Below, one piece after another: positions 15,566 through 45,720 of a stretch of 64,000 bases of DNA. Under the pieces are notes generated by a model that had not been told where the DNA came from, did no database searches, and worked only from the letters and a program-made list of their open reading frames with translations. Origin of the DNA: Nanobdellota archaeon (GTDB lineage: Archaea; Nanobdellota; Nanobdellia; Woesearchaeales; UBA11576). The position numbers and the translations under genes were made by a program. The DNA lies in contig JBHPEY010000001.1 of assembly GCA_042576705.1 (NCBI GenBank), positions 72,980 to 136,979 of the forward strand, given 5' to 3'. Each line of letters opens with the position of its first letter. Within the stretch, counting starts at the first letter, position 1.

Positions 15566-15664
15566 TGTATCACCTTTTTGGTTCTTATGATGAGTTGTTG
15601 GGGTGTTTTGTTATATATGTTTTTGGGTTTGGGAAGGGTAATGGTTGAAGAGTGGGGGTTGTTT

Positions 15665-15940
15665 TTGATTGATAATGCAGCTTTGGTTGTAGGTGCAGAT
15701 GGGTTTATGACTGTAGTTTCAGAATGAGCACCAAAGCTGCTCTATCTTTTGGAGTATTGGATGGACCAAGCCTGGTTACTGATGTTGCGGCTTTATCTGA
15801 TTTTGTAGTGGCCGCAGCTTTAGTAATCAGGTTTGCGCATGGTGGCACTTCAAGAACTCTTCCCAAATTCGGAACTGATTCTGTTTCTATAGGGCATCGC
15901 ATTCAGTTTCTTAGGTCCGAATTTGTTTATTTATCAAAAA
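15665..15940 (+). repeat. Dispersed six-box intergenic element, copy A
   Basis: GCAGCTTTGGT(15677-87)-N42-ACCAAAGCTGC(15730-40); CAAGCCTGGT(15767)...ATCAGGTTTG(15835); CAAATTCGGA(15864-73)-N42-TCCGAATTTG(15916-25). Confidence 0.9.
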
Positions 15941-15965
15941 AAGAAGTCTGGTCTTCTGTTGGGGA

Positions 15966-16904
15966 TTATTTCTTCTTTGCTGCAGGTGCTGCTTTTCTTT
16001 CCCAATACTCCTGTGCTGTCCTGTACATCAGGATCCTTGAGAATACCAGGGCCGGCACGAATATCAGCGTGCCGAATACCATCAGCAGGAAAGGGTCGCC
16101 CCTTATGAAAGGGAGGCGCAGGAAGAGGTCTATAATCACGAAAAGCACTGCTATGAAGGCGAAGCTCTTCAGCGTCTTCGTGAACCTCTTTGTGCCGTAG
16201 ATGAAGCCCTGCTTGAAGTTCTGGAATGCGTAGCGGCTGGTCAGGGTGTAGCATAGCACGCCGAAATACCAGGTCACCAGTATGAAAAATATGAACAGGA
16301 AGTTTATGGTGCCTTCTCCTATTATCGGCGCTATGCTCATCTTCATTGCCAATGTGATGCGGACTGATATGAATATCCAGAATATGCTCAGGAAGTAGAA
16401 CGGCAGGGACTCCAATGCGAAGTTCTTCCAGAATACCAGGAATGGCAGCCTCTTTTTCTTCTCTGTCGCCATGCGGTATGCTATGTACCAGCTCAACCCC
16501 TGGAAGATTATCCAGAACAGGAAGGAGCACAGTATCAGCACGCCCAGGTACTTGAATATCACGTTGAGATGGTATGCGAAATCCGCGCTCTGGGTGACTG
16601 TGTTCATCCCTGCAGTCACTGTAGATGTCTGGTTGTAGATATTCATCAGGCCGCCGGTGGCCTCGCCGGTCATCTTCATAAGGGCTTCCAGATGCTCGAA
16701 CAGGGTGAACTGTATAAGTGTTATGACCGTGGATGTCGCTATCACGAACAGCAGGTCAGTGAGGATAGAGAGGAGCACCTGCGGCCAGTTTGTGTACCAT
16801 GATTTGAATGAGGTGCTGACCAGGTTGAATAGGTTGGATGTGCGTATGTCTGAGAGTATGGATGATGTGATTCTCTTTCCTGCTGATACCTTCTTTCGTG
16901 GCAT
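15966..16904 (-). CDS. Multi-pass membrane protein, last gene of the giant-protein operon
   Basis: About 6 TM segments; start moved to ATG 16904 behind AGGTGA; topology similar to 29444-30316. Confidence 0.8.
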   Translation of the reverse strand: MPRKKVSAGKRITSSILSDIRTSNLFNLVSTSFKSWYTNWPQVLLSILTDLLFVIATSTVITLIQFTLFEHLEALMKMTGEATGGLMNIYNQTSTVTAGMNTVTQSADFAYHLNVIFKYLGVLILCSFLFWIIFQGLSWYIAYRMATEKKKRLPFLVFWKNFALESLPFYFLSIFWIFISVRITLAMKMSIAPIIGEGTINFLFIFFILVTWYFGVLCYTLTSRYAFQNFKQGFIYGTKRFTKTLKSFAFIAVLFVIIDLFLRLPFIRGDPFLLMVFGTLIFVPALVFSRILMYRTAQEYWERKAAPAAKKK

Positions 16905-16918
16905 GACGTTCACCTATA

Positions 16919-17677
16919 TCAATATACGTCCATCTTCTGGTAAAACTCTTCTTCAGTGATGCCGAACTCGGCATAGCATGCGTCGAGCGACCTTTCACCT
17001 GACTCCTCAGCTATGAAACCGCAGAGCCCTGCATTTCTCGTCCCTACAGCAATGTCATAGAAGCAATCATCCTGGGAGAAATCACCTGAGATCATGGTCA
17101 TGTTGAAACACAGCTCCACATCACCGCCTTTTTTCGCAATCTCCATGAAGCAGGTGTCCTGCGAAAACTCGCCGCTCTGCTCACCAAGGCCATAGCATAA
17201 TGACGGCATATCATCCTTGATCGCTATGACAGCTATACACCAATCCCTTGACCTGGAACCTTCGACAGCCTTTATCATGTCACAATATTCCACCACAGAT
17301 GTCTTCCTTGCGAGCTGCCTGTAGCAATCCTCTTTGATGCTGCTTTCAGCGATCCTGTCACAGAAGCCAGGATCCTCGTTCGCCAAAGCCTGTGCAACAA
17401 GATCTGCACTGTCCGGGCCGGACGTTGCCCGAGACCTGCTTACAGCAGATATCTCTGCTTCCTCTTTTGCTGCATCCTCGACGAGAAAAGAGAATATAAA
17501 AAGTATAATGCCTGCCACAACGATGACACCGACAGCGATCAGTATCATCTTCTTGTCCAGTATCCCTTTCTGAGGTTCCTGCATAGTTGGTTGCTGCTGA
17601 GGATATTGCTGCTGAGGTTGCTGGGGATACTGCTGGGCAGGTCTCTGCACCCCTTGATTGTAATCAGATTCAGGCAT
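16919..17677 (-). CDS. Membrane-anchored protein with Q/P-rich N-terminus and Cys-paired repeats
   Basis: MPESDYNQ start at 17677, adjacent to the giant gene stop; QQYPQQ repeats, TM helix, about four C-x-I-x(5-9)-D-x-C-[YF]-x3-A repeats. Confidence 0.8.
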   Translation of the reverse strand: MPESDYNQGVQRPAQQYPQQPQQQYPQQQPTMQEPQKGILDKKMILIAVGVIVVAGIILFIFSFLVEDAAKEEAEISAVSRSRATSGPDSADLVAQALANEDPGFCDRIAESSIKEDCYRQLARKTSVVEYCDMIKAVEGSRSRDWCIAVIAIKDDMPSLCYGLGEQSGEFSQDTCFMEIAKKGGDVELCFNMTMISGDFSQDDCFYDIAVGTRNAGLCGFIAEESGERSLDACYAEFGITEEEFYQKMDVY

Positions 17678-17678
17678 T

Positions 17679-20600
17679 TTATGCACTCGTACATTTACAG
17701 GTCTGTGCTTTGGTCGGGCAAGCGCTGAGAAGCAGCGAGCAGACCTTCTGATTATCACCCTTATTGCAGTCATGGATGTTATTGATCCCGTCGCAGACCA
17801 GTTTCTTGAACTCAGCAGAAGTCTTGCTGGTGCAGAACTTCCTGTTATCCCTTGAAGACCAGACATAACACTCACCATCTTCAAGGCCATACACAGGATA
17901 GTAAAGCCCCTGCTCACCACAACTGCCCTTCAGTCTAACATCCACTCTATGGTAGACTGTGACACCATAATCATTCAATATATCGCTCGCAGGCGACCCC
18001 AGATACTCTCCCCTAAAACAACCAAGTGGAAGAGCTAAACCGCTCCAGCCGATACTAATCTTGCCTGACTTGAAGCATTCCTGCACCAATGCCTTGAATT
18101 CCCCGTTTGAAATACATCCAAACACACATTTGGACCCCACAACCTTATTGCAATAATACTTTTTCATCTCATAAGATGACAACGGTTTACAATCACTGGT
18201 ATCTGTTGTCAAACCGGGAACGCAATATCTGTTGCTTGGACATGGCTCAAGGATGGGCGTGCCTGTGGGAGATTTTTTCTGGACAGACTTATACAAGGTA
18301 GTCCCTCCCTTAAATACGCCAGAGGGTATGCTCGTAACCCCCGCACCACAATTGCCTGTAATCACTTCATCAGGCTTCCCCGGAATACAGCAGACATCAT
18401 TGATCGCCTTGCATGGCCTGAAAAAGTCGTCCTTAGCAGACTCTTGAAATACATCCAAAACAGTACCCTGGGCACATTCATTAGTATCTGAAACGCATCT
18501 GTACATAGTCTGTAGAGGCGGTCCGCAAGAATCAACAGGCGTCCTGGGAGTACAGCAGGCCAGGTAGGATTCCTTGCAGGGTATGAAATCGCCACCAGGG
18601 TATTGTGATGGATTCTTAACTGAATTCTCTGTACAATCATCAATATCTGCTACGCAACTGAGTTGCTCGTGCATGAGTCCGCAAGGTGCTCCAACACCTG
18701 TCGCGGTTCCTCCGCCACCAGGACTGGCACCGGGCGGTCCACCGACACCCGCGGGCTTGGGCGGGGGCTTTGGCTTTCCTGATCCGTCGATGCAGCACTG
18801 ATTTCCTGTTGGGCAGAGACCTGCGGGTTCTTTGGTAAACGCTGTTGTCGAACCCTTGCACGTGCCTCCTGTCCCAACGCAGAATGTGTCCTCATTAGGA
18901 GGCAGTTTTACGCTATTTCCATTGGCGTTCTCTGCCATCACATGTTTCAGGCTGCACTTGCTGAAGCAGTACATGCCTGTGTCTGCCTGGCCTGCCTTGT
19001 AGCACTCGCCCTCGGTGTTCTTGACTATCGTGCATCTTGCTCCTGCTGCCTTGCCGGCGCACGCCTTTGAAGCAGCCACCGTTGTATCAAGCTTGCTTAT
19101 CTGGAGCAGTGTGCTCTGCATCGCAGGAAGCTTGAAGATGATGCTGTCACCTCCCAACAAGACAAGACAGCCTGTGGGCGATGCAGGACACTGGAGAAAT
19201 GCTCCTGCTACTCCGCTCAGCTGTATTGCAGTGTCGGACTTTGTCCTGACCCCCATCGGCAGGACATCAACCTTCAACTCGACCATCTCTCCTGCTGCCT
19301 GGCCTGTCACCTCGACATAGAAATTGATTGATGAGCTACCCATTGTAGCATCTATACCTGTGATGGTCACTTTGGCATCGCTGCTCAGCCCGGACGCAGT
19401 CACGCCATACAATGAGGGCTGGCTTGCAGAGAGTATTATCGTCTTGCCTTTGGCATCTCCAAGGCCGGATACAGCATAGGCTGCAGTGGCTGTCAGTCCA
19501 TATACATGGATCTTCTTGGCATCTTCTGAACCGAGCGTCTTTATTATGAGAATGTTCGCATCAGGGATGTGCACATAACATTCCCTCTTTGTCGGGTGGT
19601 AATTGCCTTTCACAGTCGGTCCTGCTGACTTGGTGGTTTTCTGAGGCGTGGCTCCAGTTCCTGTCGGGACGACTGTCGAGGCACCCGGCGGGCAGCAAAG
19701 GACGTATTTAGAATCGTCCTCATTACACAGCTCCTTCTTGCATCCCTTTGCAGAAGAGCATTTATCCAGGTCCTGTCCTGTGCATGCAGCAGTCATGTCC
19801 TGGCATGTGTTTCCCGTCGTATTAGCATCACACTCCTTGCCGTCAGACTTTATCTGTATCGCCATGCCTGTTATCTTCGGAATCTGAGGCTCTGCTTTAC
19901 CAGATGCTGGAAGGTATCTTGACTCTGAGTGGATGTCTGTCACGGCTTTCCCAAATATCCCTGTCGCGCCAAGGCATTCGTCCATCCCTACGTCGTCTAC
20001 ACTTATCCCGGAAGGCTTGCCTGAAAAGCCCAGACCGGACAGGTTGAATCCTATAGTGACGCCAGGCTCAAGGAATGAACCGGGATCTGTGGAAAACTCT
20101 ATATCGAAACCGTCCTCGTTCTGAACATAATTATTCAGGACAACCTTCTTGAGTGGTGTCGGATCGCCGGGTATCGGGTTGTGCAGGCGTATCTGACCAC
20201 TGCTGCCGACAGGACTGTCATATGTAAGCTGCAGACCCCCTACAGGCATTGCAGCGACACCTGTCGCGCTGTCGAAACCTGAGAAGGTGAAGACAGGGTC
20301 CTGCCTGTTCAGCTTCAGCCTTATCACGCGTTCGTTGATGCTTGCGTAAGGCGTGGTGATGCATGGAGGCACGCCGCAGGTCGGCATATCCTCTCCATTC
20401 TTCTTTATCGTGAACTGGGAGTCAGGTATGAGACCGATCTTGTCCAGGCCTATGTTGAGTATACCATAGTCTGCTTCAGGGTTTATTGTTATCTTGAATC
20501 CATTGGACCTGTCATTCGGGTCTATCCAGGCGAAGTCAGTCACACTTATCTTATCTTCAGGACCAAGGCTGTTCGCGTCTGCCCAGAGGCCGAAGGTCTT

Positions 20601-23600
20601 GTTGTACCCGTCATTCTCCTGCCTAACTACCGCTGTCCTGTATGTCAGTTCTTCTATCGATCCTTCCGACGCTGCCTTTGTCCCTGATGCGCCGCATATC
20701 ACCTTGAACTTTATCTCCTTCTTCTGCAGCTGGTTGGTATCATAATCCACAAGAGGCCCTGATGCCATCTGGTAGTAGCCAGCGACTGAATCTGCGTCGC
20801 GCAGTTCAAGGTTCATGATCCAGGTCTCAGGGTCTTTGGCGCAGTTTGACGAACTCATCGTCGAGGTCGGCGGCTTGTATTGCATACCCACGACCTGCTT
20901 CTTTTCCACTGCCTTTCCAGGGCTTCCGCCGGCGGTCGTGACCCTGCCCTTGTTCTTGATAAAATCCTTGAGCACAGTGAACTTTATGCCGTAACAGGTC
21001 ACCTGCTGGTCCATTGCAGGCTCAGCAACCGGCTGTTTTTCGCAATTTGTGAATGACTTGCCGGTAAAGACGTATTTCCCATCCTTATCAGGCACTGCTT
21101 TCTCATAGGAGAAGAATGGCTTGGCTGACGTGCCGTCTGCCGTAGGATCAAAATATATACGTATCTGGAAAACAGATGACGAACCGACCTCTGCGCAGTT
21201 AAACTGAGGACGCGAGACGACGACCTGGCCAGGTATCGACTCAACACCAGGAACCCCCTCTGGAGTGCATGAGCCAGGTGCCTGCTTGCCGAAATGCTCT
21301 GACTTTATCTCAAACTCACCATTCTCCTTGACATGCTGCGGGAAGCTGTTGACATCGAACACACTGAAGTCATGGATCGTGTCCTGGTTCAGCCGCTCAC
21401 CGACAGTCTTCTTGCCTGCCGGCGGGTATATGACAGCGCTCTGGCCGTTCTTTATCGATGTTATCACAAGATATTTCGTGAATTCACAATCAGTGGTGCA
21501 GGAAGCCGCGTCCTTTGGCAGCAGCTGCTGCACCTTCACGTTGACTATATTATTATCACCAATGCCGAACGGCTGGTTCTCAGGCTTGGTAAGCTTTTCT
21601 GAAAGGAAAGCCGCGCTTCCTGTCGGTGGTATCTCCACACCACACTTGAAAGAGAGTGAGGGAATCTGGAACTCGCAAAGGCCCATAGGTGGTCCGCCAA
21701 TCTCGCGCACAGTGCCTTCACCCCTGCCCTGCAGGGATGTTGCAGTCGCCATGGTCCCGCCGAAGCCTGCTGTGTTTGTGGTGCCTGATGTACCTCCGGC
21801 ACTTTGGCTCACAGAACCTCCATAGCCACTAGTACCTGTCTGAGTAAGAGGCCTGTACTCCACGACAGCCTTGTCATACCTGAGCGGACCCTGTACTCCT
21901 TCGACGACAAAAAGCACCTCGTCAGTGCAGAACTGTCCCTGCCTTATGTCACCACTCTCAGGGCAGTTGCCGCTCTGGTGGCGCATTATCGGAAGCTGGA
22001 CCTGCCTGTTCCGTGAAGTGTAGTCTGCAAAAGTGCCATGGGCGCAGTCGCACTTTCCATCCTTTCCTCCTGGACAGATGCCGTTCGAGCATTCAAGCTT
22101 CAGGTCGAAATGCATGTCAGACCCTGCGAACACGCTGTAACCCACCCTGTAGACATGCCTTGCAAAGCCTGTCTGGGGATCATATGCCTGCCATCTCCTT
22201 GTGACCGGGGAGACAAATATCGTGCTGTTGACAGGCAGGTATGCTGCTGTCTCAAACAGCTGGCTAAAGTCAGTCGGCCATTCACCAGTAAACATGAATA
22301 TGCACGCGTCATGCAAAAGGTTCTCTGCAGCGAACGCTGTCGCGAAAAGGTTCCGGTCGCCGTATCTTGACTGCGCCTCTGTTGTTATGCTTGCGCTCGC
22401 GTCGGCGACAGCAGAGAAGACTCCGCTTATACCACCTATACCTATCCTCGCAGCAGACTTGCCTCCAAGCCTCTGCGTTATGCAGCTTATCGCCTCCTTT
22501 ATCAGGTCGCATATGTACTGGCTTATCAGCGCCTGGCACTGGCCTGCGCTTCCGTCGCCGGTGACGAGGATCGTCTGGAAGCACTGCTGCAACAGCGTGA
22601 GCATGTTACGCAGCTGCACAACCCAGCTCAGTATGCCTGAAAGGCAGAGCGTGACCACTGATTGTATGAAGCTACCTGCAGGCTGAGCAAGGTACTGACG
22701 GCCAGGCTCTCCGAGAAGTCCGGTTATCTGACGATACCAGTGCTCGAAATTCGTGGGCGTGGGTTTCCTCTTGGTCTTGCCGACCCGCATCTCTATCTTG
22801 CCTTCAGCAATCTGCTTCTCTATATCCTTCCTGAACTCCTTGAGATTGGAATCAAACTCTTTTTTCGCATCAGCACCTTCTTTCTCCTGGCTGATGTCTG
22901 CATTGTTCAGGACAGGAAACCATTCATTAAGGTTTTTTGACTGCGGGATGAAATACGCTCCTGTATTGATCTCCACCCTCCCGTCAGCCTGCACCTGGCC
23001 GAGATTCTTGACTTCGATCTTGGAATAGTATCCCCTGAAGACAGTCTTGGGACTTCCCTTCTCGTCTATATCGACGACATAGACAACATCATCACCTATC
23101 ATCTGCTCTGCAGACTTCGGATAGCCCTTGACCCATTTCAGGTTGTCAAGCACCACTGGCTGCGCCTTGGGCTTTGCACCCTTGGGCTGGCAGATCCCTG
23201 TGACGCCGCGCAGTATCGTCTGGCCTGCGCCGCACTTGCTCTTGTCCTCGGGATTCGCGAGGCAATAAGACATCTTGAGCTCATTGCTCCACATCATACC
23301 CCAGCCCCACTCCTGCATGTACTCGAACGGGCAGCAGGCAGGCTGCGGAACATGGCCTTCTGCACATACTTCCTTTGCCCGAGCATTGGTCTCGTAGGTA
23401 TTGTACATCTCCCTGACAGGTCCACTGCCGAGCTCTACGAACGCGCAGTCAGACTTTGCGTTCTTGTAGGGGGGTTTTTTCCAGATATTTTTCTCATAAT
23501 TGACAACATTACTGTAGTCTATCCTGGATGACGTGGTTGCAGCAGGCTTTGCACTTGAACTCTTGGTGGCTGCTGCCAATCCTGTTATCAGGGGAACCGT

Positions 23601-29442: not shown

Positions 29443-29443
29443 G

Positions 29444-30316
29444 TTACCTCTTTTTATTTGATGTCTTCTTGTTCCTGCCCTTGATTGTCCCTGTTCCATC
29501 CTTTGCCATCGTCGCGATCAACCTCAGGTAATAGAACCTGAGCCATGAAAAATAACCGACCAGCAGGATGGTCGAGATTATCGTGAAGACAACCATGTTC
29601 CCTGCCAACAGGAAGATGAACTGGATGAGATTTATGATCACAAGGATGATGATAGAGAACAGCAATGGGATGAGAAACCTTCCGAAACCCCTGATGCCTG
29701 TCTGGTACAGTCCCTTCACAGCGCCGCGCAGGGTCTTCCTCCTGACAAGGTGCGTGAAGATATTTATCGAGAACCAAAACAGCGCAAAGAAAACTACTGC
29801 AAGGATGACGATGCTAAGCACCCCGCTCACAGCACTCACATCCATATTCCTGCCGAAAGTCAGGAACGTGATGAACTGCAGGACCATGAAGATGATGAAC
29901 GACACGATGCCCCACAATATCGACATGACGACAAACCTCCAATACACTCCCCAGGCAAACCCTGTCTTCAATAATGTGTCGTATATCCTGTTCTTGATGA
30001 ATGTCCACACTGCAATGATGAAAAGTATCAGCAGCACAGTCGAGAAAAAGAACGTGCCCAGCACCTTGGCCATGACCTGATCACTTATGGGCGTGCCGAA
30101 TGACGACGCGTAATCCCCGAAGCTCTCCATCTGTGTCCTCAGCCCGCTGATATCATCGTCAAGCGACATGATGCTCCTGTTCCATGTGAAACCGCCTATC
30201 ACGAGCAGGGCTATGAGCAGGAACTCAAGCAGCACGACGTAAAGCAGTCTCCGGTCTATCCTGATGAAGGACTCCTTCAAAAGTCTCCAGTGTCCAGAAA
30301 CAATAGCTAAACACAT
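29444..30316 (-). CDS. Multi-pass membrane protein with basic C-terminal tail
   Basis: About 6 hydrophobic segments; stop 1 nt before the next ATG. Confidence 0.8.
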   Translation of the reverse strand: MCLAIVSGHWRLLKESFIRIDRRLLYVVLLEFLLIALLVIGGFTWNRSIMSLDDDISGLRTQMESFGDYASSFGTPISDQVMAKVLGTFFFSTVLLILFIIAVWTFIKNRIYDTLLKTGFAWGVYWRFVVMSILWGIVSFIIFMVLQFITFLTFGRNMDVSAVSGVLSIVILAVVFFALFWFSINIFTHLVRRKTLRGAVKGLYQTGIRGFGRFLIPLLFSIIILVIINLIQFIFLLAGNMVVFTIISTILLVGYFSWLRFYYLRLIATMAKDGTGTIKGRNKKTSNKKR

Positions 30317-30338
30317 TTTGCGTCAATCCATATATCCT

Positions 30339-31796
30339 TCAAGGCGAAAGCCCTGGTGTCGTTGTTGCAGCGCCTGGAGCGCCTGTTGTCGCACCCGGCG
30401 CCGTGATTATAGGTGTAGGAACGATAGGAGCAGTCGGAAGCAAAGAAGGCCCATCCTCATCCGCAAACTGCTGGTACTCGCGCTCGTAACCAGCGACTAT
30501 CGTCTGACAGATAGGATTGTCCTCTTCGTCAAACATGCCGCCGAATACAGCGTGGACCTGGTCAAAGTTGAGGAACTTGATACAGATGGTATCATACACC
30601 TGCGGGGTCTCAAAATAAAACATGTTCGCTCCTGCAAGGCTCAGCTTCTCACCTGCCTCCAGCTCTATCTCACCATACGTACCGTAGATGTTATAGATCT
30701 CCTCATCAAGGTATATGATGAACTCCATAGGACCCTCACCGGCGCTTATCTCTCCGGATATCTTGTAAGCATAATATGGGTCACAGCTCGCGTTCTCGTA
30801 TCTTCCCAGGACACTCAGACAAGGGTCTATATACACACGCTCGCCTTCCATGTGCGCGAAGCTCCTTCCTGAAGGGGATGTTATGAAACCCCTTGACCCT
30901 GCGAGGTTAGGATCATAGAGATGCCTGTCATCACAGTAATCCTCAGCCCACCTGTTTATCGTCAGGTCCATGCCGAAATCAGACGTGCTGTCAGCACCTT
31001 CACCGAACCATGACGATCCCAGTGTATAGAAACTGCTCGAGAAAGCGCCTCCAAAGATGAAATTGAACCAGCCACCTGAAGCATAGACCTGGTTGGCTAT
31101 GTTAGGCCAGTTAAAACCGCTCTTGAACTCGGCTGCTTTTGGGTCCACAGGTGTTGTCTTTTTGCCACCTGTTTCGCTCTTCTGGGTACGAACAGATTCC
31201 TCGGCAGCTTTAGCATCTGCAGGTCCAGCTTTAGTTTGCGCATCTCTGATATTTTGTGCAAACTCTGCGTCAACCTTGCTTGACTCTCCATTAGTTGGAG
31301 TGAGAAAAACCCCTTCATCACCCCTATCGTCGACTGTCCACGTCACCCCGCCCCGCTTGTATTCGCCCGGGCCTGTGCGTGTGTAGATGTCACCATCCAA
31401 ACTGAAACTGATGGGTTTAGCAGGGGCGGTGGGAGCAGCGGGAGCAGCAGTGGAACCAGGAGCAGCAGAAGAACCCTCTTTTTTCTGTTTTGGATTATTA
31501 GTATCAGCGGGAGCAGCACCAGCTGAAGAATCTGGCGAAGAACCTGCCGCGGCAGGTTGTTGAGGGGAAGTTTGCTCAGCTTGCTTGGTCAGTTCAGAAC
31601 TCAGAGAAGAATCAGTCACTTCACTATCGTAAATACCTTGGCGCCACCACTTTCCATTTTTATATATATAATTATCCAACTCACGCCCTTCCGCAATCTC
31701 AGCATCTACAATATAAGACTGCTGCAAAGTTAGGAACATGCAAATGACTATGCAACTGATAATCTTCAGGATCGTGTCTTGATTCTTCTTATCCAT
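30339..31796 (-). CDS. Secreted or anchored protein with P/A/S-rich linker, internal aromatic-Gly hydrophobic segment and P/T-rich tail
   Basis: N-terminal ILKIISCIVICMFLTL; PAAPTAPAKP linker; GGWFNFIFGGAFSSSFYTLGSSWFG segment. Confidence 0.8.
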   Translation of the reverse strand: MDKKNQDTILKIISCIVICMFLTLQQSYIVDAEIAEGRELDNYIYKNGKWWRQGIYDSEVTDSSLSSELTKQAEQTSPQQPAAAGSSPDSSAGAAPADTNNPKQKKEGSSAAPGSTAAPAAPTAPAKPISFSLDGDIYTRTGPGEYKRGGVTWTVDDRGDEGVFLTPTNGESSKVDAEFAQNIRDAQTKAGPADAKAAEESVRTQKSETGGKKTTPVDPKAAEFKSGFNWPNIANQVYASGGWFNFIFGGAFSSSFYTLGSSWFGEGADSTSDFGMDLTINRWAEDYCDDRHLYDPNLAGSRGFITSPSGRSFAHMEGERVYIDPCLSVLGRYENASCDPYYAYKISGEISAGEGPMEFIIYLDEEIYNIYGTYGEIELEAGEKLSLAGANMFYFETPQVYDTICIKFLNFDQVHAVFGGMFDEEDNPICQTIVAGYEREYQQFADEDGPSLLPTAPIVPTPIITAPGATTGAPGAATTTPGLSP

Positions 31797-31820
31797 CTTA
31801 AATCATCTATCTCAATATAA

Positions 31821-34800
31821 TCATGTCGTAGGTGTTTCGGGAGTCGTCTCTGTTGTGGTCGCGCTTGCGGCCTCTGATTCTGCTTCTGTCTCATCCATGT
31901 CTGTCGCGAATCCCAGGTTCGCGTAGCTCGGGTCATCCTTCAGTGCCTCTTCGCAATAATCGAATGAGATGTCCTTGAACCTGTCAGCAGTGTTCTCCAC
32001 GAGATCAGTGACCAGCGCCGCCAGTGACAGCGCATACATGGCAACCATGCATGCCTTGCAGCCCCAGAAAGCAGGGTTGCCGCATATGCCGAGCGTACAG
32101 CCCTTGTCCATGACAAGCCCCAATACAAACGACGCAGGCTGTTTCACAATCCGGTTAAGGACCAGGCCTATCTGCTCGATATACTGCGTTATGGGAAGCG
32201 CAGCGAATATCTGGCCGGTAGCCCAGGTGCACATCTCATAATCATACTGCTTATCGCACTGCCATTTCGGCCTTCCCTGTGCGGCATCTATCTTCAGGCA
32301 GAGCAGTTTCTTGCACTTGATCTGCCTGTACTTCTCAATGTTCATCAATATACCTGGAAGACATGCTGAACCTGCGCTGGTTATGATACTCCTCGTAGGG
32401 TCAAAATCATCCACTGAGAAGATGGTCAATCCTTCTGTCACGTCCTCCATCCCTTTCCTTTCTTCCACAGTGACGGTCATACCCAGCGACTTGGACAAGG
32501 CCCTATTTGCAGCAGCAAGATTAATATACTCAGCCCAGAAACCATTCCACTTCGCCCACGTCTTCTTGACAGTGCACCAGCCGGTCTTCTTAGGGCAGTT
32601 CGCTACCATGGCCTTCTTCGCGTTCTTTGTCAGCCTGCAGGATATGAAAAGGCCGCACATGAAATACAGCTCACCCATCATGTCCTTAGTAGCGTCTGCA
32701 AGCGCTGCTGTTGTCTGGCCTGCAGTCTGGGAGGCCTTGCAGCCACCAGGCCCAACCACTTTTGCGTTGCACACAGTGGTGAATATCTCCTTGAGGCCTG
32801 CCCACATGGTCATCAGAGACATATACATCTCGATGAAACGGCACATCTCACGGGCGTAAGCCAGTATCATATTGGTATAATGCACAACATCGTCTATCGT
32901 CTGATCCACATCCTTCTCAAGCTGCGCTATCTCATCATTTATGTTGCCTATGTTCTGGCCAAGAGGATTGTTGTAGACAGGTATCGGGAATGAGACATTG
33001 ACCCCTTCAGGCAGTGTCAAAGCCTTTCCTGTGGTTGAGGTCACGATTGACTGCATATAGAATGTGCAGTTCACATAGACCTCATCGACAGAGACATTGC
33101 CCCCTGATCCATCTATCATGTAATATTCAGGCACAGAGCCTGGGTTCAGTGCTATCACAAAGATATCCTGGGTCGATCCGGATCTGAAGTCGCCGAAGCC
33201 CATCAGCCCAACCTCAAACTCGCTGGTGACAGTGTCCTGGTTCACCCAGTCAAGACCTACGCAATCCATCGGATCAAGATTAATCGAAGTGACGCCCAGC
33301 ACACCGCCATATGAATACATGTTGAGCCTGTAATACATCCTGTGGTTGCCGATGCCCCAGCTCAACCGGTCGATGCCGCTCGAAGGGGAAAAGCTGTCCA
33401 CAGCAATCATCCATCTCGTGGCTGAGACATTCTCCTTCTCGAGGATCTCTATGTTGCTCCATGTATATGTATAAGAATGATTTGTGTAATCATAGAATGT
33501 GAAAGGTATCTTCAGTCCGCTCAGGTATCCCCTCATCAACGGCTCACTGGGAGACCACTTGCACTCGAAGATGCGCTGATCCATCTCAGCAGGGTCGATA
33601 TGATTCTCCGTGCAGACTCCTTCTTCAGCCCACTCACCGTTCTCTATGACATGTGACAGGTTCGCGACAGCCTTTGATATGCCTGAATGGTCCTTGACAA
33701 ACAACGTGATCTCCAGCATATCACCTGAGCTCAGGTTTGTCATCTGTCCAGACTCGCCGAGGCCAGTCATGTTGGAATGCGCAAGAAGCGCCGCATCTAT
33801 CTCAGGGGGATCGCGGTCAACCTTGAAATTGCCGTGAGGGACAGGGACTGCGAACAGGTTCTTGGCATCATCCATCGAGCCTGCCATCGGCCTCAGGTAA
33901 AGGGACGTCCCGCTGCTCTTGTCAGTGCCGACCCAATCCCAGAAACAGTTCCAGTCTGGCACGCAGCTGTTGGGATGCATGACTCCGGCGACAGACCCTC
34001 CCTCGATCGGCTGGGCACCGAATGACGCGAAGTCAAGGAACAGCTTACGGTACGCCATGCCTGAATCAGCCTCTACAATACTGGCGGTTATCCTGTTGTT
34101 CTCTTCAGCAACCCAGTAATTGCCCTTATCATCGACGTAACTTGAGTATATCTTGGTGACCACAGGCCGGGTGCTGTCAAAGGTCATCGGGACAGGTGTG
34201 ATCTCATCCAACCTGTTGCCATTGTCATCCTTTGCATAGATCCTCGCAGAGATCGTCTTGGGAGAGCTCATCACCACGAATATCGGGCCGACAGTGCAGA
34301 TGTAGGGTGTGCTGCCTGTGCATTGCGCTGTCATGTTACCAAAGATGGGCTCATGCTCAGGACGCTCACTGAGCCCTGACGCGTTCACGAAGACATCCAG
34401 CAAGTCACCGTCCTCTGAGATATTGAACTCGAGCAGGACATTGCCTATTGTCTCGCCGTTGGTGTATATGACATTTTTTCCGGTCAGGTCAACAATACGG
34501 ATACCAGAGACCACAGGAGGCCTGGCATCTACATTGACATCCGTGCATTCAGTGCTGCTCTGGCCGAGCAGGTCAGTCATCTCGATACAAACCCTCTTTG
34601 ACTCAACCTCTCCTGCGACGACAAGGCCTGTGAGGTTGACCTCCCCATCGAACTCGCATCCTGAAGGGAAGCTATTATTCTGCCCCACGGGCAATCCTGC
34701 CACTGTGAACCTGATGCTCGACATGCCCACGCAGATGTTGTTGCACGCAGACTTATCACATGATTCATCCTTGATATCAAACGCAGCAGTCACGACACCA

Positions 34801-35270
34801 TTCTCATGCGCGGTGTAGTCCACAGGACTCATCAGCTTGGGAGGCAGGTTATCGACAACCACAGATCCACTCTTCGGCGCTGCCAGCGGTGCCTGCGCAT
34901 CACTGAAGAGCCGCACAGTAAAACTGAATATGCCTCCTTTTGAAAGGGAGACCTCAGGATATTCCTTTATGCACTCGAACCTGCCAGCTATCTCTTCGGA
35001 AGGTGTGCAGTTGAAGGTAGCGCCAGGGTCCTCCACAAGACGGACCTGCGTCGGTTCCAGTATCGGGTCATCAGGCACCGTGGCTGTCACGTTTATCACT
35101 GTCGTGTCGGTCTGGCCGCGGAAGTGAGGGATGCCCTGGCCTCCCTGGACCACGACAGAATCGATGGACGCAGCCATGGCGTCAGCCGAATAGATCGGGA
35201 GAGTGACTACTAGGAATATCATGAACATTGCAATGTTTATCAGGTAGGTGTTTCTCCTCATTTTATCCAC
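31821..35270 (-). CDS. Large (1149 aa) secreted protein with Ig-like domains and C-terminal Cys-patterned helical domain
   Basis: Signal peptide ...IFLVVTLPIYSADAMAA; VDN.PP / VDARPP / FDSTRP / VDRDPP Ig junction motifs; C-terminal P..S.I.S....CL.GIL motif shared with the giant protein. Confidence 0.88.
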   Translation of the reverse strand: MDKMRRNTYLINIAMFMIFLVVTLPIYSADAMAASIDSVVVQGGQGIPHFRGQTDTTVINVTATVPDDPILEPTQVRLVEDPGATFNCTPSEEIAGRFECIKEYPEVSLSKGGIFSFTVRLFSDAQAPLAAPKSGSVVVDNLPPKLMSPVDYTAHENGVVTAAFDIKDESCDKSACNNICVGMSSIRFTVAGLPVGQNNSFPSGCEFDGEVNLTGLVVAGEVESKRVCIEMTDLLGQSSTECTDVNVDARPPVVSGIRIVDLTGKNVIYTNGETIGNVLLEFNISEDGDLLDVFVNASGLSERPEHEPIFGNMTAQCTGSTPYICTVGPIFVVMSSPKTISARIYAKDDNGNRLDEITPVPMTFDSTRPVVTKIYSSYVDDKGNYWVAEENNRITASIVEADSGMAYRKLFLDFASFGAQPIEGGSVAGVMHPNSCVPDWNCFWDWVGTDKSSGTSLYLRPMAGSMDDAKNLFAVPVPHGNFKVDRDPPEIDAALLAHSNMTGLGESGQMTNLSSGDMLEITLFVKDHSGISKAVANLSHVIENGEWAEEGVCTENHIDPAEMDQRIFECKWSPSEPLMRGYLSGLKIPFTFYDYTNHSYTYTWSNIEILEKENVSATRWMIAVDSFSPSSGIDRLSWGIGNHRMYYRLNMYSYGGVLGVTSINLDPMDCVGLDWVNQDTVTSEFEVGLMGFGDFRSGSTQDIFVIALNPGSVPEYYMIDGSGGNVSVDEVYVNCTFYMQSIVTSTTGKALTLPEGVNVSFPIPVYNNPLGQNIGNINDEIAQLEKDVDQTIDDVVHYTNMILAYAREMCRFIEMYMSLMTMWAGLKEIFTTVCNAKVVGPGGCKASQTAGQTTAALADATKDMMGELYFMCGLFISCRLTKNAKKAMVANCPKKTGWCTVKKTWAKWNGFWAEYINLAAANRALSKSLGMTVTVEERKGMEDVTEGLTIFSVDDFDPTRSIITSAGSACLPGILMNIEKYRQIKCKKLLCLKIDAAQGRPKWQCDKQYDYEMCTWATGQIFAALPITQYIEQIGLVLNRIVKQPASFVLGLVMDKGCTLGICGNPAFWGCKACMVAMYALSLAALVTDLVENTADRFKDISFDYCEEALKDDPSYANLGFATDMDETEAESEAASATTTETTPETPTT

Positions 35271-37450
35271 TCTGGCTCGAGCTCTGTCCTGTAGATGCTC
35301 GAGTATTTCCTCACCTCGCCTACCTGCTCAAGGCCAGGCATGTTCCTGAGCTGTGTGGTATGGGTAGCCGGCAGCGGGAACCTCAACACAAACAGGTTCA
35401 GCTTCTTGCTGCTGAAAAGCTCGTCTTCAGGCACGTGGAAGTATCCGCTCTCATTATCCAGGGATACCCCTCCTTCCTGCCACCTGTCCATCAAAGTCTC
35501 GTTCAGCTCTATAGGTACATCGTCACCGAATATCCCGCCATCATATACCTTTGTCTCCTTAGGTATCCTCACTGTGTCATTGTAGATCAGGTATCCTTTC
35601 ACCTCGTATGTGCCAGGCATCATCTTCATGGTAGACATCTTTCCCTGACCATAACCAAAGGTATAGGCCCTGTACCCCTTGAGCGGATCCTCATCCACAC
35701 GCTCGAAAAGGAACAGGTACATCTCCTTCCTTGAAAGTGAACTCACAGGCGCAGCAGGAGGCAAGATATAGTTGTAATCCTGATAAGCAAGAGGTCTCGC
35801 GAACACGCTCACGTTTATCATCTTGAAAGGCATCAGCTCGACCGTAAGGTTCTTCTCCCTTGTCGGCGAGGCATAGAACCTGTCCACATGTTCAATATAG
35901 TTAATATGAGTCACCCTGATATCTCCAAGGCCGATCGGGAGCGAGGTCTCGATCACCGACCTGTTCTCAGAGTCGATCTCTGTCAGACCGACATGACAAC
36001 CTTCAACTCCGAACTCCAGCGACACAATCGCATCAGTTATACCTCTGCCTGTGATCCTGTCCTTGACCTCGATCGTCACCGGTGCGCTCTGCTTCTGGTT
36101 CTGACTGCAGATGAGCGTGCCCTGTTCCTCCCTGAAGACCGTCCCATTGCTCATGTTGATCGGCTGATTATACCGCAGGTTCTGCTCCAAAGCGAACCTG
36201 AAGTCAAAGCCTTCCCCTGCAAAAGCAGTATTGTCATTAAGATCTACCATGACAGGATAAGCGACGCTGTAAAGGAATACATATTGCTTGAAACCCAACC
36301 AGCTGATGATAGGTATCGAAATAGTGGTCGGCATGAGCACCTCCCTGTCATTTATGTTAAGATATATAGGCCACCAGTCAAGATAGGTGAACCTCGCCCT
36401 GATGTTCGGGTATGACTTGCCGACACTGATCACTGTATTGTCCATCACACCAGTCCCTGTCCCATCATAGATAAGCTCCCCTGCCCTGTTGTCCTTGAAC
36501 ATCACCACCCGCTTGAAATCCCTTGAACCATTCAGCTGTAGCGATGCTATGCCCGAAGTAAGCATGTTCTGCTCCATCTTCTCCTTTGTCCTGGTCCTTG
36601 TCCAGAAAAGGAACTCTGTGGGATCAAGACTGAACGCGGCGATAGGTGGAAGCTTATTCATGGAGACCGGCTGCGAATACATGGATATCAGGTTCATGGT
36701 GTGGGTCTCAAGGAACTGCATCTCAGCCTCTTTCATTGCCAGCTTTGAGGCAACATCATATATGTCCTTGAAGCGGACGTCCAGCTTTGTGAAGAACGCG
36801 GATATTTCTGTCTTCTTGCCTTCCCTGGAAATCTGGAGCGGATAATCCACAAGTATGGCTATCTCGCGCTCTGCCACCTTTGCGTCTGTCGTGATCCTGC
36901 CAAGCTCGGTTATATCAAAGCCCTGCTCCTGGAACGCCTTGAAACCGTCCACGCATTTCACAAGCTCCCTGTTGATGTAAGCATCAAGCTGTCCCTCTAT
37001 GGAGTAAAGGCTCTCTGTCTTCCTGAGTGGAGGCATGAAACTATCAAACTCGCATGTTCCAGAACACTTGTTGTGCGACTTCAGATACCACCAATACGGT
37101 ATAAAGCCAGACTTGTCGAACAGCATTATACCATCTGATTCTGTGGGCTCCATACCTGTAAGGAATATCGTGCCGCTGATGCTCATGTTGTCTGGATCGA
37201 CATAGCCGCCGTGCAGGCCTATCTTCTCTATGGCTTCCCTGCCGATCTTCTTCACGCAATCTTCCACGAATATCTTTACCGGCTGCGCCTCCAATGACAC
37301 CTCCTCGATCGAGGGTATCAGCTCACCCGACAGTCCTGTCGTGATCTGCCCCCTTATGTAGAAGAGAAGGGCAGACGAGAATAGCAGGATCACTCCGATT
37401 ATCATGAACACTGTGATCTGCGCTTTCCGGTTGTTATGGAATCGTGTCAT
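35258..37450 (-). CDS. Large prepilin-like (class III signal peptide) protein, paralog 1
   Basis: MTRFHNNRKA/QITVFMIIGVILLF; ATG 37450 overlaps the upstream TGA (ATGA). Confidence 0.85.
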   Translation of the reverse strand: MTRFHNNRKAQITVFMIIGVILLFSSALLFYIRGQITTGLSGELIPSIEEVSLEAQPVKIFVEDCVKKIGREAIEKIGLHGGYVDPDNMSISGTIFLTGMEPTESDGIMLFDKSGFIPYWWYLKSHNKCSGTCEFDSFMPPLRKTESLYSIEGQLDAYINRELVKCVDGFKAFQEQGFDITELGRITTDAKVAEREIAILVDYPLQISREGKKTEISAFFTKLDVRFKDIYDVASKLAMKEAEMQFLETHTMNLISMYSQPVSMNKLPPIAAFSLDPTEFLFWTRTRTKEKMEQNMLTSGIASLQLNGSRDFKRVVMFKDNRAGELIYDGTGTGVMDNTVISVGKSYPNIRARFTYLDWWPIYLNINDREVLMPTTISIPIISWLGFKQYVFLYSVAYPVMVDLNDNTAFAGEGFDFRFALEQNLRYNQPINMSNGTVFREEQGTLICSQNQKQSAPVTIEVKDRITGRGITDAIVSLEFGVEGCHVGLTEIDSENRSVIETSLPIGLGDIRVTHINYIEHVDRFYASPTREKNLTVELMPFKMINVSVFARPLAYQDYNYILPPAAPVSSLSRKEMYLFLFERVDEDPLKGYRAYTFGYGQGKMSTMKMMPGTYEVKGYLIYNDTVRIPKETKVYDGGIFGDDVPIELNETLMDRWQEGGVSLDNESGYFHVPEDELFSSKKLNLFVLRFPLPATHTTQLRNMPGLEQVGEVRKYSSIYRTELEPEWIK

Positions 37451-38448
37451 GATATCGACCTCATGCACGTGAACTGGTAAAAGTCAGACTGGATGTCATT
37501 GCAGATAGCCTCAAGCTCATATCTCGGGCGCTGATGCGTACTCAGGGCCGTGGCGATGACAAGCTCACAGATATCCTTTTCAGGGCCTTCCTTCTCCTCG
37601 CAGATGAGGATGCCGTGATAGTAGTCGCCGCCCAGCTCCTGCAGGGTGTTGTCTATTATCCTTGTGGTGTCCTTGTAGAACTGGTATCCCATTGTGCCCC
37701 CTATCATGAGAGTGAGGACCCAGAACGTAATTATCACGTACAGGAATACCTTGTCCTTGTGATGCAGCGGACGGTCCTTGAACCTCTCAGCGTAGAAATA
37801 CTTCCTCTCGTTGAGGATGTACCAGATGATGATCGAGTTCATCACGACCAGCGAGATAAAAGAAAGTATCAGGAGATTCCTGAACATGGGATGCTCTACA
37901 GAGTCGAAGAGGATGAGTGAGATTATTGAATTCAGCGCAGTGAAAGCAAAGAAGCCTACCGACAGGTCGAAGGTATATGCCTTGCGCCTCCAGAATCCGA
38001 AAACCATCGCGAAGATGATTGCGAGAAGGACTGCGTTGATTATCAGTGCGCGTGTGCCTTCTATCATCTTTCCGAAAAGGATCGTTGTCGGGAAAGTGAT
38101 GCCATAGATGAATGAGATGAGATAAAGGAATGAGAGGAATGTAAGATAACCTATGAGAAACTTTATGCCCAGGGGGATGAGGTACTTGCCGCGATGTATC
38201 GGTGATGGGACAAAGAACTCTTCCTCAAGCTCGTGAGGGACTCTCTGAATCTTCTCTTCCAGGAGCTTTGGTTTCGGGATGATCTTCAAGAACTTCTTCC
38301 GCTTTGTGCGGGTCTTTGGTCTTGATTTGGCTTTCTTTTTGGCTTTGGCTTGAGGTCTAGATGGTGTTTTCTTCTTAGAACTAGAGCCAGAGGTCTTTCT
38401 GCTCGTTTTACTAGTCTTCTGTGTACTCTTACCCCTTTTTTTTACCAC
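37447..38448 (-). CDS. Membrane protein with Lys/Ser-rich N-terminus and C-terminal Cys-paired repeat; first gene of the operon
   Basis: About 5 TM segments; CEEKEGPEKDICEL...CNDIQSDFYQFTC resembles the repeats in 16919-17677. Confidence 0.8.
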   Translation of the reverse strand: MVKKRGKSTQKTSKTSRKTSGSSSKKKTPSRPQAKAKKKAKSRPKTRTKRKKFLKIIPKPKLLEEKIQRVPHELEEEFFVPSPIHRGKYLIPLGIKFLIGYLTFLSFLYLISFIYGITFPTTILFGKMIEGTRALIINAVLLAIIFAMVFGFWRRKAYTFDLSVGFFAFTALNSIISLILFDSVEHPMFRNLLILSFISLVVMNSIIIWYILNERKYFYAERFKDRPLHHKDKVFLYVIITFWVLTLMIGGTMGYQFYKDTTRIIDNTLQELGGDYYHGILICEEKEGPEKDICELVIATALSTHQRPRYELEAICNDIQSDFYQFTCMRSIS

Positions 38449-38472
38449 AATGATTACCTACTCTACGTTATA

Positions 38473-38484
38473 GCTGTATACAGC
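38473..38484. promoter_or_regulatory. Perfect 12-bp palindrome GCTGTATACAGC upstream of the giant-protein operon (possible operator)
   Basis: Lies between a TTTATAAA box (38544-38551) and the start codon at 38448. Confidence 0.3.
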
Positions 38485-38702
38485 AGTCCCGAACTTTTTA
38501 CTGTCTACAAACCCCCTGTAGGGTACATCCGAAATATTATGTGTTTATAAAGATTTGGTTTTGTTTATAAATAAAGGTGTGTGTTATAATATAAAAGTGT
38601 TTGTTTATTTACCGACGAGAAACTACTGTGTAGTGGTTAGGGATTGCGGTTGATGGGGGATGGTGGAGAGGGGTGGCAGGGGGAGAATAAGATGTTGTAG
38701 GA

Positions 38703-39050
38703 GCAGTTTTTTTGATTGATGATTCAGCTTTGGTGTTAGGTGCGGAAGGTGTTGTGAGAGATGGCGCAGTTTCTTTGATTGATGATTCAGCTTTGGTGTT
38801 GGGTGCATATGGTTGTGTGGCAATAGATGCTGTAGGAGTACCAAAGCTGATCCATCGTTTTGTAGTATTGGATGGAACAAGCCTGGTTACGGATGCTGCG
38901 GCCACATCAAATTTGAATAAAGCCGCAACATCTCACACCAGGCTTGCGTAAGGCCGCGCCTAAAGAATTCTTCCCAGCTTTCGAACTAATGTAGTCACTA
39001 CTGCGCATCGCATTAATTAACTCATGTCGAAAGCTGTTTATTTATCAAAA
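38703..39050 (+). repeat. Dispersed six-box intergenic element, copy B (with a 63-bp tandem duplication of its 5' end)
   Basis: TCAGCTTTGGT(38787-97)-N42-ACCAAAGCTGA(38840-50); CAAGCCTGGT(38878-87)-N49-ACCAGGCTTG(38937-46); CAGCTTTCGA(38975-84)-N42-TCGAAAGCTG(39027-36). Confidence 0.92.
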
Positions 39051-42249: not shown

Positions 42250-42290
42250 GAGTTATTTTTTGTTTTTTCTTTTTTGTTTTCTTTTTTTAA
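42250..42290 (+). terminator. T-rich archaeal-type terminator
   Basis: Long oligo-T tract directly after the stop at 42241. Confidence 0.55.
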
Positions 42291-45448: not shown

Positions 45449-45720
45449 GGTCTGCTGCTGCCACCACGAGCCTGGTCGCTGATACCACGATGTCAAGTTC
45501 TAAGACTGTTTGACTATCGTTCTGGCCGAAGGCCATTTTCTTTATATCGTTTATTTTACCTGATGTTGCTGCCTCAACAAATTCACATAAAGCAGCTGCG
45601 TCTTCCCTAATCAGGCTTGTTCCATCCAATACTCCCGACGATAGATCAGCTTTGGTGCTAATCCAGTATCGATTGTCAGACCAACAGCCACCACCAAAAC
45701 CAAAGCTGAATTAAGAATTC
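45449..45720 (-). repeat. Dispersed element, copy D (reverse orientation; alternative 3' module)
   Basis: On the + strand: TCAGCTTTGGT(45646-56)-N42-ACCAAAGCTGA(45699-709); ATCAGGCTTG ending 45619; GAGCCTGGTC near 45468. Confidence 0.9.

What the first reader, a model, noticed from the sequence alone, without database searches (positions are those of the whole stretch)
15864..39036. Compensatory substitutions in the third inverted pair of the element
Seen: copy A has CAAATTCGGA(15864-73)/TCCGAATTTG(15916-25), whereas B has CAGCTTTCGA(38975-84)/TCGAAAGCTG(39027-36), and F matches B. Four positions differ in the left arm, and each is matched by the complementary change in the right arm across an unchanged 42-nt spacer. 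The second pair in A (CAAGCCTGGTTACT/AGTAATCAGGTTTG) and its inner GTTGCGGCT/GGCCGCAGC stem differ from perfect pairing only by G-T pairs in the + orientation. Inference: pairing or symmetry, not just sequence, is maintained, which favours a folded single strand (RNA or ssDNA) read in the G/T-rich orientation, or arm-to-arm gene conversion.
Basis: partly seen in the sequence, partly recalled or inferred. Interest (0 to 1): 0.7.

Follow-up and report, generated by a model that had tools for sequence, protein, structure and literature searches.

The report
Palindromic mosaic repeats with covarying hairpins
The matched changes are real: they belong to a roughly 30-copy family of hairpin-rich, non-coding repeats between the genes of a tiny DPANN archaeon, which keeps its base-pairing through paired substitutions but behaves like a DNA palindrome, not like an RNA read from one strand.

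Summary
The third hairpin is present in 13 of them, always with a 10-bp stem and a 42-nt loop. It occurs in five stem versions. All 130 stem cells are Watson-Crick and 6 of the 10 pairs show double changes (0 of 500 shuffles reach this).

The strand-specific reading does not hold. Across the family G-T and A-C mismatches are equally common, and both strands fold equally well. Copy A's "G-T only" central stem appears in copy B as its reverse complement.

The segment between the second inverted pair is flipped between copies: A against B, F against C16, and C37 against C18 (94 of 107 identical only in reverse complement). The 275-nt form is an inverted dimer of one unit: T-run, then a 10-42-10 hairpin, then a 28-nt spacer.

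All copies are intergenic and mostly lie at gene 3' ends. Relatives with the same geometry but other stem sequences occur in 5 of 11 congeners.

The best reading is a DNA-level mosaic palindromic repeat resembling REP, BIME, BOX and MITE elements, with no recognisable transposase in the assembly. This scan had already noted the family in this genome and look-alike families in other Woesearchaeota.

The parts
15661..15938 (+). Copy A, full 275-nt form (class I). T-run and GATTGATAAT; H1 arms 15677-15687 / 15730-15740; outer stem of pair 2 at 15767-15780 / 15822-15835; inner stem 15784-15792 / 15810-15818; H3 arms 15864-15873 / 15916-15925; end motif TTTATTTATCAAA 15926-15938.
38707..38770 (+). 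Extra partial 5' unit upstream of copy B: a T-run and the left arm TCAGCTTTGGT at 38724-38734, with no partner arm.
38771..39049 (+). Copy B, class I. H1 arms 38787-38797 / 38840-38850; outer stem of pair 2 at 38878-38890 / 38934-38946; H3 arms 38975-38984 / 39027-39036; end motif 39037-39049. The central segment 38891-38933 is inverted relative to copy A.
42282..42620 (+). Copy C, long form (class II). Partial 5' unit 42282-42341; H1 arms 42359-42369 / 42412-42422; box 3 at 42450-42460; inner hairpin; conserved unstructured block with GCCTTCGGC at 42535-42543; box-4-like GCTTGGT tail at 42600-42606.
45470..45725 (-). Copy E, class II, on the minus strand. H1 arms 45709-45699 / 45656-45646; box 3 at 45619-45609; GCCTTCGGC at 45533-45525.
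49341..49625 (+). Copy D, class II. Partial 5' unit 49341-49378; H1 arms 49396-49406 / 49449-49459; box 3 at 49487-49497; GCCTGCGGC at 49572-49580; tail GCTTGGT at 49616-49622.
59302..59584 (-). Copy F, class I, on the minus strand. H1 arms 59567-59557 / 59514-59504; box 3 at 59476-59466; box 4 at 59417-59405; H3 arms 59376-59367 / 59324-59315; end motif 59314-59302. Its central segment is inverted relative to copies C16, C26 and C37.

Best explanation
**What it is.** The element is a lineage-specific, non-coding, mosaic palindromic DNA repeat.

**Architecture (shown).**
- The basic unit is a T-run, a GAT..TAAT motif, a hairpin with a 10-11 bp stem and a 42-nt loop, a 28-nt spacer, and the box CAAGCCTGRTTAC.
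- The 275-nt form (A, B, F) is two such units head to head around a small central hairpin. The 'second inverted pair' is simply the shared box of the two units. The 'third pair' is the hairpin of the right-hand unit.
- The longer form (C, D, E) keeps the left unit and carries a larger centre plus optional inserted GC-rich palindromes.

**How it works (inferred).** The arms pair within one DNA strand, as a hairpin in single-stranded DNA or as a cruciform. This pairing is what is recognised or preserved. Pairing would be kept either by selection at each locus or by copying one arm from the other (template switching or hairpin repair). Either route yields double changes without G-T intermediates. 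Recombination across the inverted boxes would flip the centre.

**What is not known.** How copies spread, and whether they serve the host, for example at the ends of convergent genes.
For: **Copy number, borders, location.**
- About 30 copies in 1.7 Mb, all intergenic. Similarity between copies stops at the element borders.
- Lengths are rigid: 274-278 nt in ten full copies, and 42-nt loops in 38 of 39 hairpins.

**Pairing.**
- H3 is 130 of 130 Watson-Crick, with 6 covarying pairs and no G-T at all.
- H1 is 281 of 286 Watson-Crick, with one G-T.
- Each copy is 22-30% diverged from its nearest copy outside the stems, yet stems stay paired. Stem differences are 20 observed against 128 expected for H1 and 32 against 79 for H3, and all H3 differences are compensated.

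**No strand polarity.** G-T and A-C mismatches are balanced and folding energies of the two strands are equal.

**Centre inverted between copies.**
- A against the reverse complement of B: 33 of 43 identical, versus 27 of 43 direct.
- F against the reverse complement of C16: 40 of 46, versus 28 of 46 direct.
- C37's centre plus inserted module against the reverse complement of C18-19016: 94 of 107, versus 62 of 107 direct.

**Inverted-dimer architecture.** The right half of class I copies matches the left-unit covariance model on the opposite strand, with E from 1e-6 to 2e-3.

**Not an independent or coding unit.**
- No promoter space exists where the T-run directly follows an upstream stop codon.
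- Indels are not multiples of three, and stops occur in all + frames (read).

**Comparative.**
- The same architecture with other stem sequences occurs in 5 of 11 congeners.
- The site downstream of MetRS lacks this family in congeners and often holds other hairpin repeats.
- A published census lists a Woesearchaea genome among the archaea densest in MITEs (PMC11602168).
Against: - No transposase of the Y1/HUH, TnpB, DDE_Tnp_1, IS110 or rve families was found. There is only one tyrosine recombinase, which I take to be the chromosome-resolving XerA type (not checked). The assembly is 89% complete.
- No target-site duplication was seen.
- The closest pair of copies is only 88% identical, so there is no sign of recent spread.
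- Stems are maintained in copies that are individually old. That points to selection or repair at each locus, which a purely selfish, decaying repeat would not show.
- Ends preferentially face gene 3' ends: 9 of 11 for the H3 end and 5 of 11 copies between convergent genes, against 18% of all gaps. This also fits a transcript-end role.
- Transcription could not be examined.
Confidence: 0.58

Rival explanations
1. Cis-acting transcript-end module. Each unit (T-run plus hairpin) marks or protects the 3' end of the gene that reads into it. The inverted dimer would serve convergent gene pairs from both sides, which would explain why only Watson-Crick pairs, valid on both strands, are tolerated.
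For: - The H3 end faces a gene 3' end in 9 of 11 class I copies.
- The H1 end faces a 3' end in 19 of 29 copies.
- Five of 11 class I copies lie between convergent genes, against 18% of all intergenic gaps.
- T-runs sit at both outer borders.
- Pairing is maintained locus by locus.
Against: - The T-run, which is the archaeal termination signal (established knowledge), comes before the hairpin for an incoming polymerase, so most transcripts should end before the stem.
- Class II units face only one direction, yet they also avoid G-U pairs.
- A flipped centre and nested palindromic inserts are DNA events with no RNA rationale.
- Two copies face gene 5' ends on both sides.
Confidence: 0.22
2. Free-standing structured small RNA gene family read in the G/T-rich orientation.
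For: Copy A's helices have only G-T departures on the + strand. Covariation is strong. The length is rigid.
Against: - There is no strand asymmetry across the family.
- Copy B has the opposite polarity because its centre is inverted.
- Several copies have no room for a promoter between the upstream stop codon and the T-run.
- Only 1 G-U pair occurs in 416 stem cells of H1 and H3, far fewer than I would expect in RNA helices.
- Rfam gives no match.
- The long form has a 75-nt conserved block with no conserved structure.
Confidence: 0.05
3. Arrays of double-stranded binding sites. Each pair of arms would be two inverted half-sites for a dimeric DNA-binding protein, so symmetry is kept without any intrastrand pairing.
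For: The H1 arm sequence is almost invariant in 26 copies. The spacing is rigid. The geometry is two-fold symmetric.
Against: Five different H3 arm sequences coexist in one genome, and every one is perfectly self-complementary. A protein tolerant of those positions would let the arms vary independently, and they never do.
Confidence: 0.08

Closest known systems
REP / BIME / REPIN elements of bacteria, with RAYT (Y1 HUH) transposases
   Same: High-copy, intergenic, palindromic, often at gene 3' ends. They occur as inverted doublets and in mosaic combinations, and pairing is kept by matched changes.
   Different: The units here are 62-nt hairpins with long 42-nt loops, not 20-40-nt stem-loops. 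There is no conserved GTAG-type head. No Y1 transposase is found in the assembly. The host is archaeal.
BOX elements of Streptococcus pneumoniae (boxA-boxB(n)-boxC)
   Same: Modular build with variable numbers of one module (extra 5' units in B, C and D; 1-6 tail repeats in class II), intergenic location, strong predicted folding, and no known mobilising enzyme.
   Different: No sequence relationship was looked for or expected. Here there is an inverted-dimer architecture with a centre that occurs in both orientations.
MITEs, including the high densities reported for DPANN and Woesearchaea genomes (PMC11602168)
   Same: Non-autonomous, a few hundred bases long, imperfect terminal inverted repeats (TTTTTTGAT..TAA..CAGC at both ends), species-specific families, absent from the orthologous site in congeners.
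   Different: No target-site duplication was seen. No parent element or transposase was found. The copies are all old (88% identity or less), yet they stay structurally intact.
Flip/flop hairpins of palindromic DNA ends (parvovirus terminal repeats, poxvirus telomeres)
   Same: An asymmetric segment enclosed by inverted repeats occurs in both orientations.
   Different: Those are replicative termini of linear genomes. Here the segment sits inside dispersed chromosomal repeats, and the flips are fixed differences between copies, not shown to be ongoing. This is a resemblance from my own knowledge, not a tested membership.

Membership tests
REP/REPIN (RAYT-mobilised) | Cognate Y1 (HUH) RAYT transposase gene in the genome | tested here: not met
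   PF01797 gives no match in the 89%-complete assembly, while the control genomes respond.
REP/REPIN (RAYT-mobilised) | Short imperfect palindrome of 20-40 nt with a conserved tetranucleotide head | tested here: not met
   Units are 10-11 bp stems around 42-nt loops, and no conserved GTAG-like head is present.
REP/REPIN (RAYT-mobilised) | Intergenic, high copy, inverted doublets | tested here: met
   About 30 copies, none inside a predicted gene. Class I is an inverted doublet of one unit.
MITE | Terminal inverted repeats | tested here: met
   The left end is TTTTTGATTCTTAAT-CAGC and the right end is GCTG-TTTATTTATCAAAAA. The right half matches the left-unit model on the opposite strand with E from 1e-6 to 2e-3.
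MITE | Target-site duplication flanking the element | tested here: inconclusive
   The flanks are a T-run on one side and an A-run on the other, which read as part of the inverted ends. No direct repeat was recognised by eye.
MITE | Related autonomous element or transposase | tested here: not met
   No match to Y1_Tnp, TnpB, DDE_Tnp_1, IS110 DEDD or rve. Genes between inverted copies C and E are ordinary cellular genes by my reading of their translations, with no family search run.
MITE | Presence/absence at orthologous sites | tested here: met
   Congeners with the same gene pair (MetRS plus the downstream gene) lack this family in that gap. The species are distant, with MetRS about 72% identical.
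Structured RNA family (Rfam) | Match to a curated covariance model | tested here: not met
   No match at gathering score in the window. Only chance-level sub-threshold hairpin matches appear.
Structured RNA gene | Strand-specific fold: G-U tolerated on the sense strand, and the sense strand folds better | tested here: not met
   G-T 7 against A-C 8 in the helices. Mean folding energy is about -83 against -80 kcal/mol on the two strands. One G-U pair in 416 H1 and H3 cells.
Structured RNA gene | Transcribed as a discrete RNA | not testable with these tools
Protein-coding gene | Conserved open frame with codon-like substitution pattern | tested here: not met
   Indels of 1-2 nt occur between copies. 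Stops occur in all three + frames of copy E. The candidate short frame in class II is broken in most copies (read).

The most novel reading that the evidence does not exclude
The element would be a host-maintained architectural DNA palindrome, not a decaying parasite. It is two-fold symmetric, has a flip-flop centre and is found across the genus. It would be kept intact at each locus in genomes that have no recognisable transposase. Candidate roles are a DNA-level signal at gene ends (for example an insulator between convergent transcription units or a replication-associated hairpin site), or the substrate of a still unknown structure-specific recombinase of DPANN archaea.
Probability: 0.2. 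Interest if true: 0.7.

Novelty: new variant of a known kind. Interest (0 to 1): 0.42.

Why it matters
Small DPANN genomes are thought to be streamlined, yet this one spends about 9 kb on a single family of precisely built palindromes and keeps their pairing intact over long divergence. Two things follow.

- The compensatory changes come with no strand polarity and with flipped centres. That warns against reading covariation alone as proof of a functional RNA.
- The finding points to an unidentified process that acts on hairpin DNA in these archaea, whether repair, recombination or a new mobilising enzyme.

Tried and rejected
**Coding.** Rejected. Frames are broken by indels and stops, and the ATG-led short frame in the class II block is not conserved.

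**Known RNA family.** No Rfam match, and no tRNA or tmRNA in the window.

**Global sequence palindrome.** The loop and spacer of the left half are only weakly similar to the reverse complement of the right half (z from 0 to 3). The relationship shows only with the covariance model.

**Class II 3' block as a structured domain.** RNAalifold finds only a 3-bp mini-hairpin.

**Searches elsewhere.**
- BLAST of 40 relatives found nothing.
- Exact-pattern scans of genome, metagenome and viral collections found nothing, or 17 unrelated palindromes that the model rejects.

**Autonomous parent element.** Six recombinase or transposase families were searched, and only one tyrosine recombinase was found.

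Full report
**1. The observation**

The stated sequences are at the stated coordinates. Copy A has CAAATTCGGA (15864-15873) and TCCGAATTTG (15916-15925). Copy B has CAGCTTTCGA (38975-38984) and TCGAAAGCTG (39027-39036). Copy F, on the minus strand, has the B-type arms at 59376-59367 and 59324-59315.

Four arm positions differ between A and B, and each is compensated. The 42-nt spacer is unchanged in length only: the two loops share 27 of 42 bases.

**2. The family**

The window holds six copies. The window lies in a 1.7-Mb, 77-contig, 89%-complete genome, which earlier notes of this scan describe as a Woesearchaeota-type DPANN archaeon.

A profile search finds 27 full 5' cores plus fragments, and a covariance model finds 39 matches. 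There are two architectures.

- *Class I* (A, B, F and eight more) is 274-278 nt long in every full copy. In order, it consists of:
  - a T-run;
  - the motif GAT..TAAT;
  - hairpin H1, with an 11-bp stem and a 42-nt loop;
  - a 28-nt spacer;
  - the box CAAGCCTGRTTAC;
  - a small central hairpin;
  - the reverse complement of the box;
  - a 28-nt spacer;
  - hairpin H3, with a 10-bp stem and a 42-nt loop;
  - the end motif TTTATTTATCAAAA.
- *Class II* (C, D, E and about 15 more) shares H1, the spacer and the box. It then has the central hairpin, optional GC-rich palindromic inserts, a 75-nt block conserved in sequence but without conserved structure, and one to six copies of a degenerate box-4-like GCGACCTGGTGCTTGGT.

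No copy overlaps a predicted gene. Similarity between copies starts at the T-run and stops at the right border, so these are discrete elements and not segmental duplications.

**3. Covariation**

For H3 in 13 copies:

| Measure | Result |
|---|---|
| Stem cells that are Watson-Crick | 130 of 130 |
| Pairs with changes on both sides | 6 of 10 |
| Doubly changed cells | 22 |
| One-sided changes | none |
| G-T pairs | none |
| Shuffles reaching the observed values | 0 of 500 |
| Pairing when the partner is slid by one column | 40-52% |

(All.)

Five stem versions coexist: CAGCTTTCGA, CAGATTTCGA, CAAATTTCGA, CAAATTCGGA (four copies) and CAAAACCCGA. Some of them differ from one another by a single compensated pair. 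Congeners carry CAAATTCTGA and CAGATTCTGA.

H1 is more conserved in sequence but also covaries. One pair is U-A in 20 copies and G-C in 6. One copy has CAGCTTCGGT paired with ACCGAAGCTG. Congeners have TTTGATTTTGT, CAGATTTTGT, AAATTTTGGT and GGCTTTTGT, each with its complement.

Each copy differs from its nearest relative by 22% (H1 unit) or 30% (H3 loop) outside the stems. At that rate 128 and 79 stem differences would be expected. Only 20 and 32 are seen, with 5 unpaired cells out of 286 in H1 and none out of 130 in H3. The closest pair of whole copies is 88% identical. Pairing has therefore been kept during substantial independent divergence.

**4. Strand polarity**

- In the helices of ten full copies there are 7 G-T and 8 A-C mismatches.
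- The two strands fold equally well, at about -83 and -80 kcal/mol on average and with similar z-scores.
- Copy B's inner stem has C-A mismatches on the + strand.

The reason for the last point is structural. B's central segment is the reverse complement of A's (33 of 43 identical in reverse complement, 27 of 43 direct). F's is the reverse complement of the centre in copies C16, C26 and C37 (40 of 46 against 28 of 46). The 103-nt centre of C37, including an inserted palindromic module, is 94 of 107 identical to the reverse complement of the centre of the class II copy C18-19016, and 62 of 107 direct.

The loops of H1 (26 copies) and H3 (13 copies) never flip. The segment enclosed by the second inverted pair therefore exists in both orientations. 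That is a DNA rearrangement, either inversion or orientation-ambiguous conversion across the inverted boxes. It is not something an RNA with a defined sense strand would show.

**5. Two-fold symmetry**

The covariance model of the left unit also hits the right half of class I copies on the opposite strand, with E from 1e-6 to 2e-3. The two ends read TTTTTGATTCTTAAT-CAGC and, in reverse complement, TTTTTTGATAAATAAA-CAGC.

Class I is therefore an inverted dimer of one unit. The 'second pair' is the box shared by the two units, and the 'third pair' is the right unit's hairpin. One isolated H3-type unit follows a tRNA gene on another contig.

**6. Context**

- The H3 end faces a gene 3' end in 9 of 11 class I copies.
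- Five of 11 class I copies lie between convergent genes, whereas 18% of all gaps are convergent.
- The H1 end faces a 3' end in 19 of 29 copies.
- In several copies the T-run follows the upstream stop codon directly, which leaves no room for a promoter.

**7. Distribution**

- BLAST finds nothing in 40 relatives. The covariance model finds elements of the same geometry in 5 of 11 genomes of the genus.
- One congener has at least seven copies of its own version.
- Two congeners carry a family member at the same site behind the same gene.
- Downstream of MetRS, where copy B sits, congeners with the same neighbouring gene lack this family. Several carry other hairpin repeats there.
- Pattern scans of public genome, metagenome and viral collections gave no true member.

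**8. Mobilising enzyme**

No Y1/HUH, TnpB, DDE_Tnp_1, IS110 or rve transposase is present in the assembly, and there is a single tyrosine recombinase. Absence in an 89%-complete assembly is not proof.

**9. Interpretation**

The evidence fits a DNA-level palindromic mosaic repeat best (confidence 0.58).

The hairpins are probably formed by single-stranded or supercoiled DNA. Strictly Watson-Crick compensation, with one G-T in 416 cells, fits either of two processes: selection for a DNA hairpin, in which G-T is destabilising, or arm-to-arm copying by template switching. These steps are inferred, not shown.

The main rival is a transcript-end module acting from both sides (0.22). Location favours it. 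The order T-run before hairpin, and the DNA rearrangements, count against it. A one-strand small RNA (0.05) and a duplex binding-site array (0.08) are less likely.

**10. Comparison and novelty**

The closest known kinds are REP/BIME/REPIN, BOX and MITEs. The defining features of REP (RAYT, short palindrome) were tested and not met. MITE features are partly met: inverted ends and presence/absence yes, duplication and parent element no.

A published census already reports very high MITE density in a Woesearchaea genome (PMC11602168). This scan had already noted the family in this genome (e1-2801725, e1-5276893) and comparable families in other Woesearchaeota.

Three points are new in this analysis:
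- the extent of the covariation;
- the inverted-dimer architecture;
- the flipped centre, which explains the misleading G-T pattern of copy A.

Verdict: a new variant of a known kind, of moderate interest.

Noticed in passing
G000 contig C1:63858-64038 (about 9 kb before the window); also contigs C18, C3, C35 and C1:42.4 kb: A separate 55-nt GC-rich double palindrome (ATTGCAACCGTTCGGTTGCAGGGTTGTCTGCGGCTGACGCCTTAGCCAAC) is inserted in one copy precisely inside the right arm of H1 (GCACC|insert|CAAAGCTG). In four other copies it sits after the central hairpin. Two further insert types also occur: GTTAACAATCCCTGCGGGATTCTTAAC with its flank, and CTCGCAGGTCTGCGAG followed by GTTCGAGGAAACCTCGAAC. 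These look like independently inserting mini-palindromes.
   Followed up: partly
window 38707-38770, 42282-42341, 49341-49378: Copies B, C and D are preceded by an extra, truncated 5' unit (T-run plus left arm of H1, without a partner arm). These are tandem partial duplications with periods of 63, 60 and 38 nt.
   Followed up: partly
L034:1135-1360, L032 and L040 (congeners G009, G011, G002): Downstream of the element in three congeners, behind a TTTTTAAATG promoter-like box, lies a roughly 230-nt sequence. It opens with GCCGTCGTSGCA and closes with GGGCGACGGCGC, and contains GGTTCAAAAG. It looks like an RNA gene, possibly a tRNA with a long intron. Rfam at gathering score did not name it.
   Followed up: partly
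G000 contigs C1, C18, C3, C42: Within contigs the copies are mostly co-oriented: 8 of 10 on C1, 3 of 3 on C18, 2 of 2 on C3 and 3 of 3 on C42. This could reflect replication direction, as it does for single-strand transposons. The numbers are too small for a firm test and the origin is unknown.
   Followed up: no
L051-L060 (downstream of MetRS in congeners): Almost every congener has some other hairpin-rich repeat directly behind the MetRS stop codon. One example is CAGGAACGTCAC...GTGACGTTCCTG in G003, and there are GC-rich palindromes in G002, G010 and G007. Gene 3' ends therefore seem to be general landing or retention sites for such repeats in this genus.
   Followed up: no
window 42828-43343 (minus strand): A 171-aa protein with a Pro/Gln-rich tandem-repeat N-terminal half (PQQ.PPQ motifs) and a C-terminal membrane segment lies between copies C and E.
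   Followed up: no
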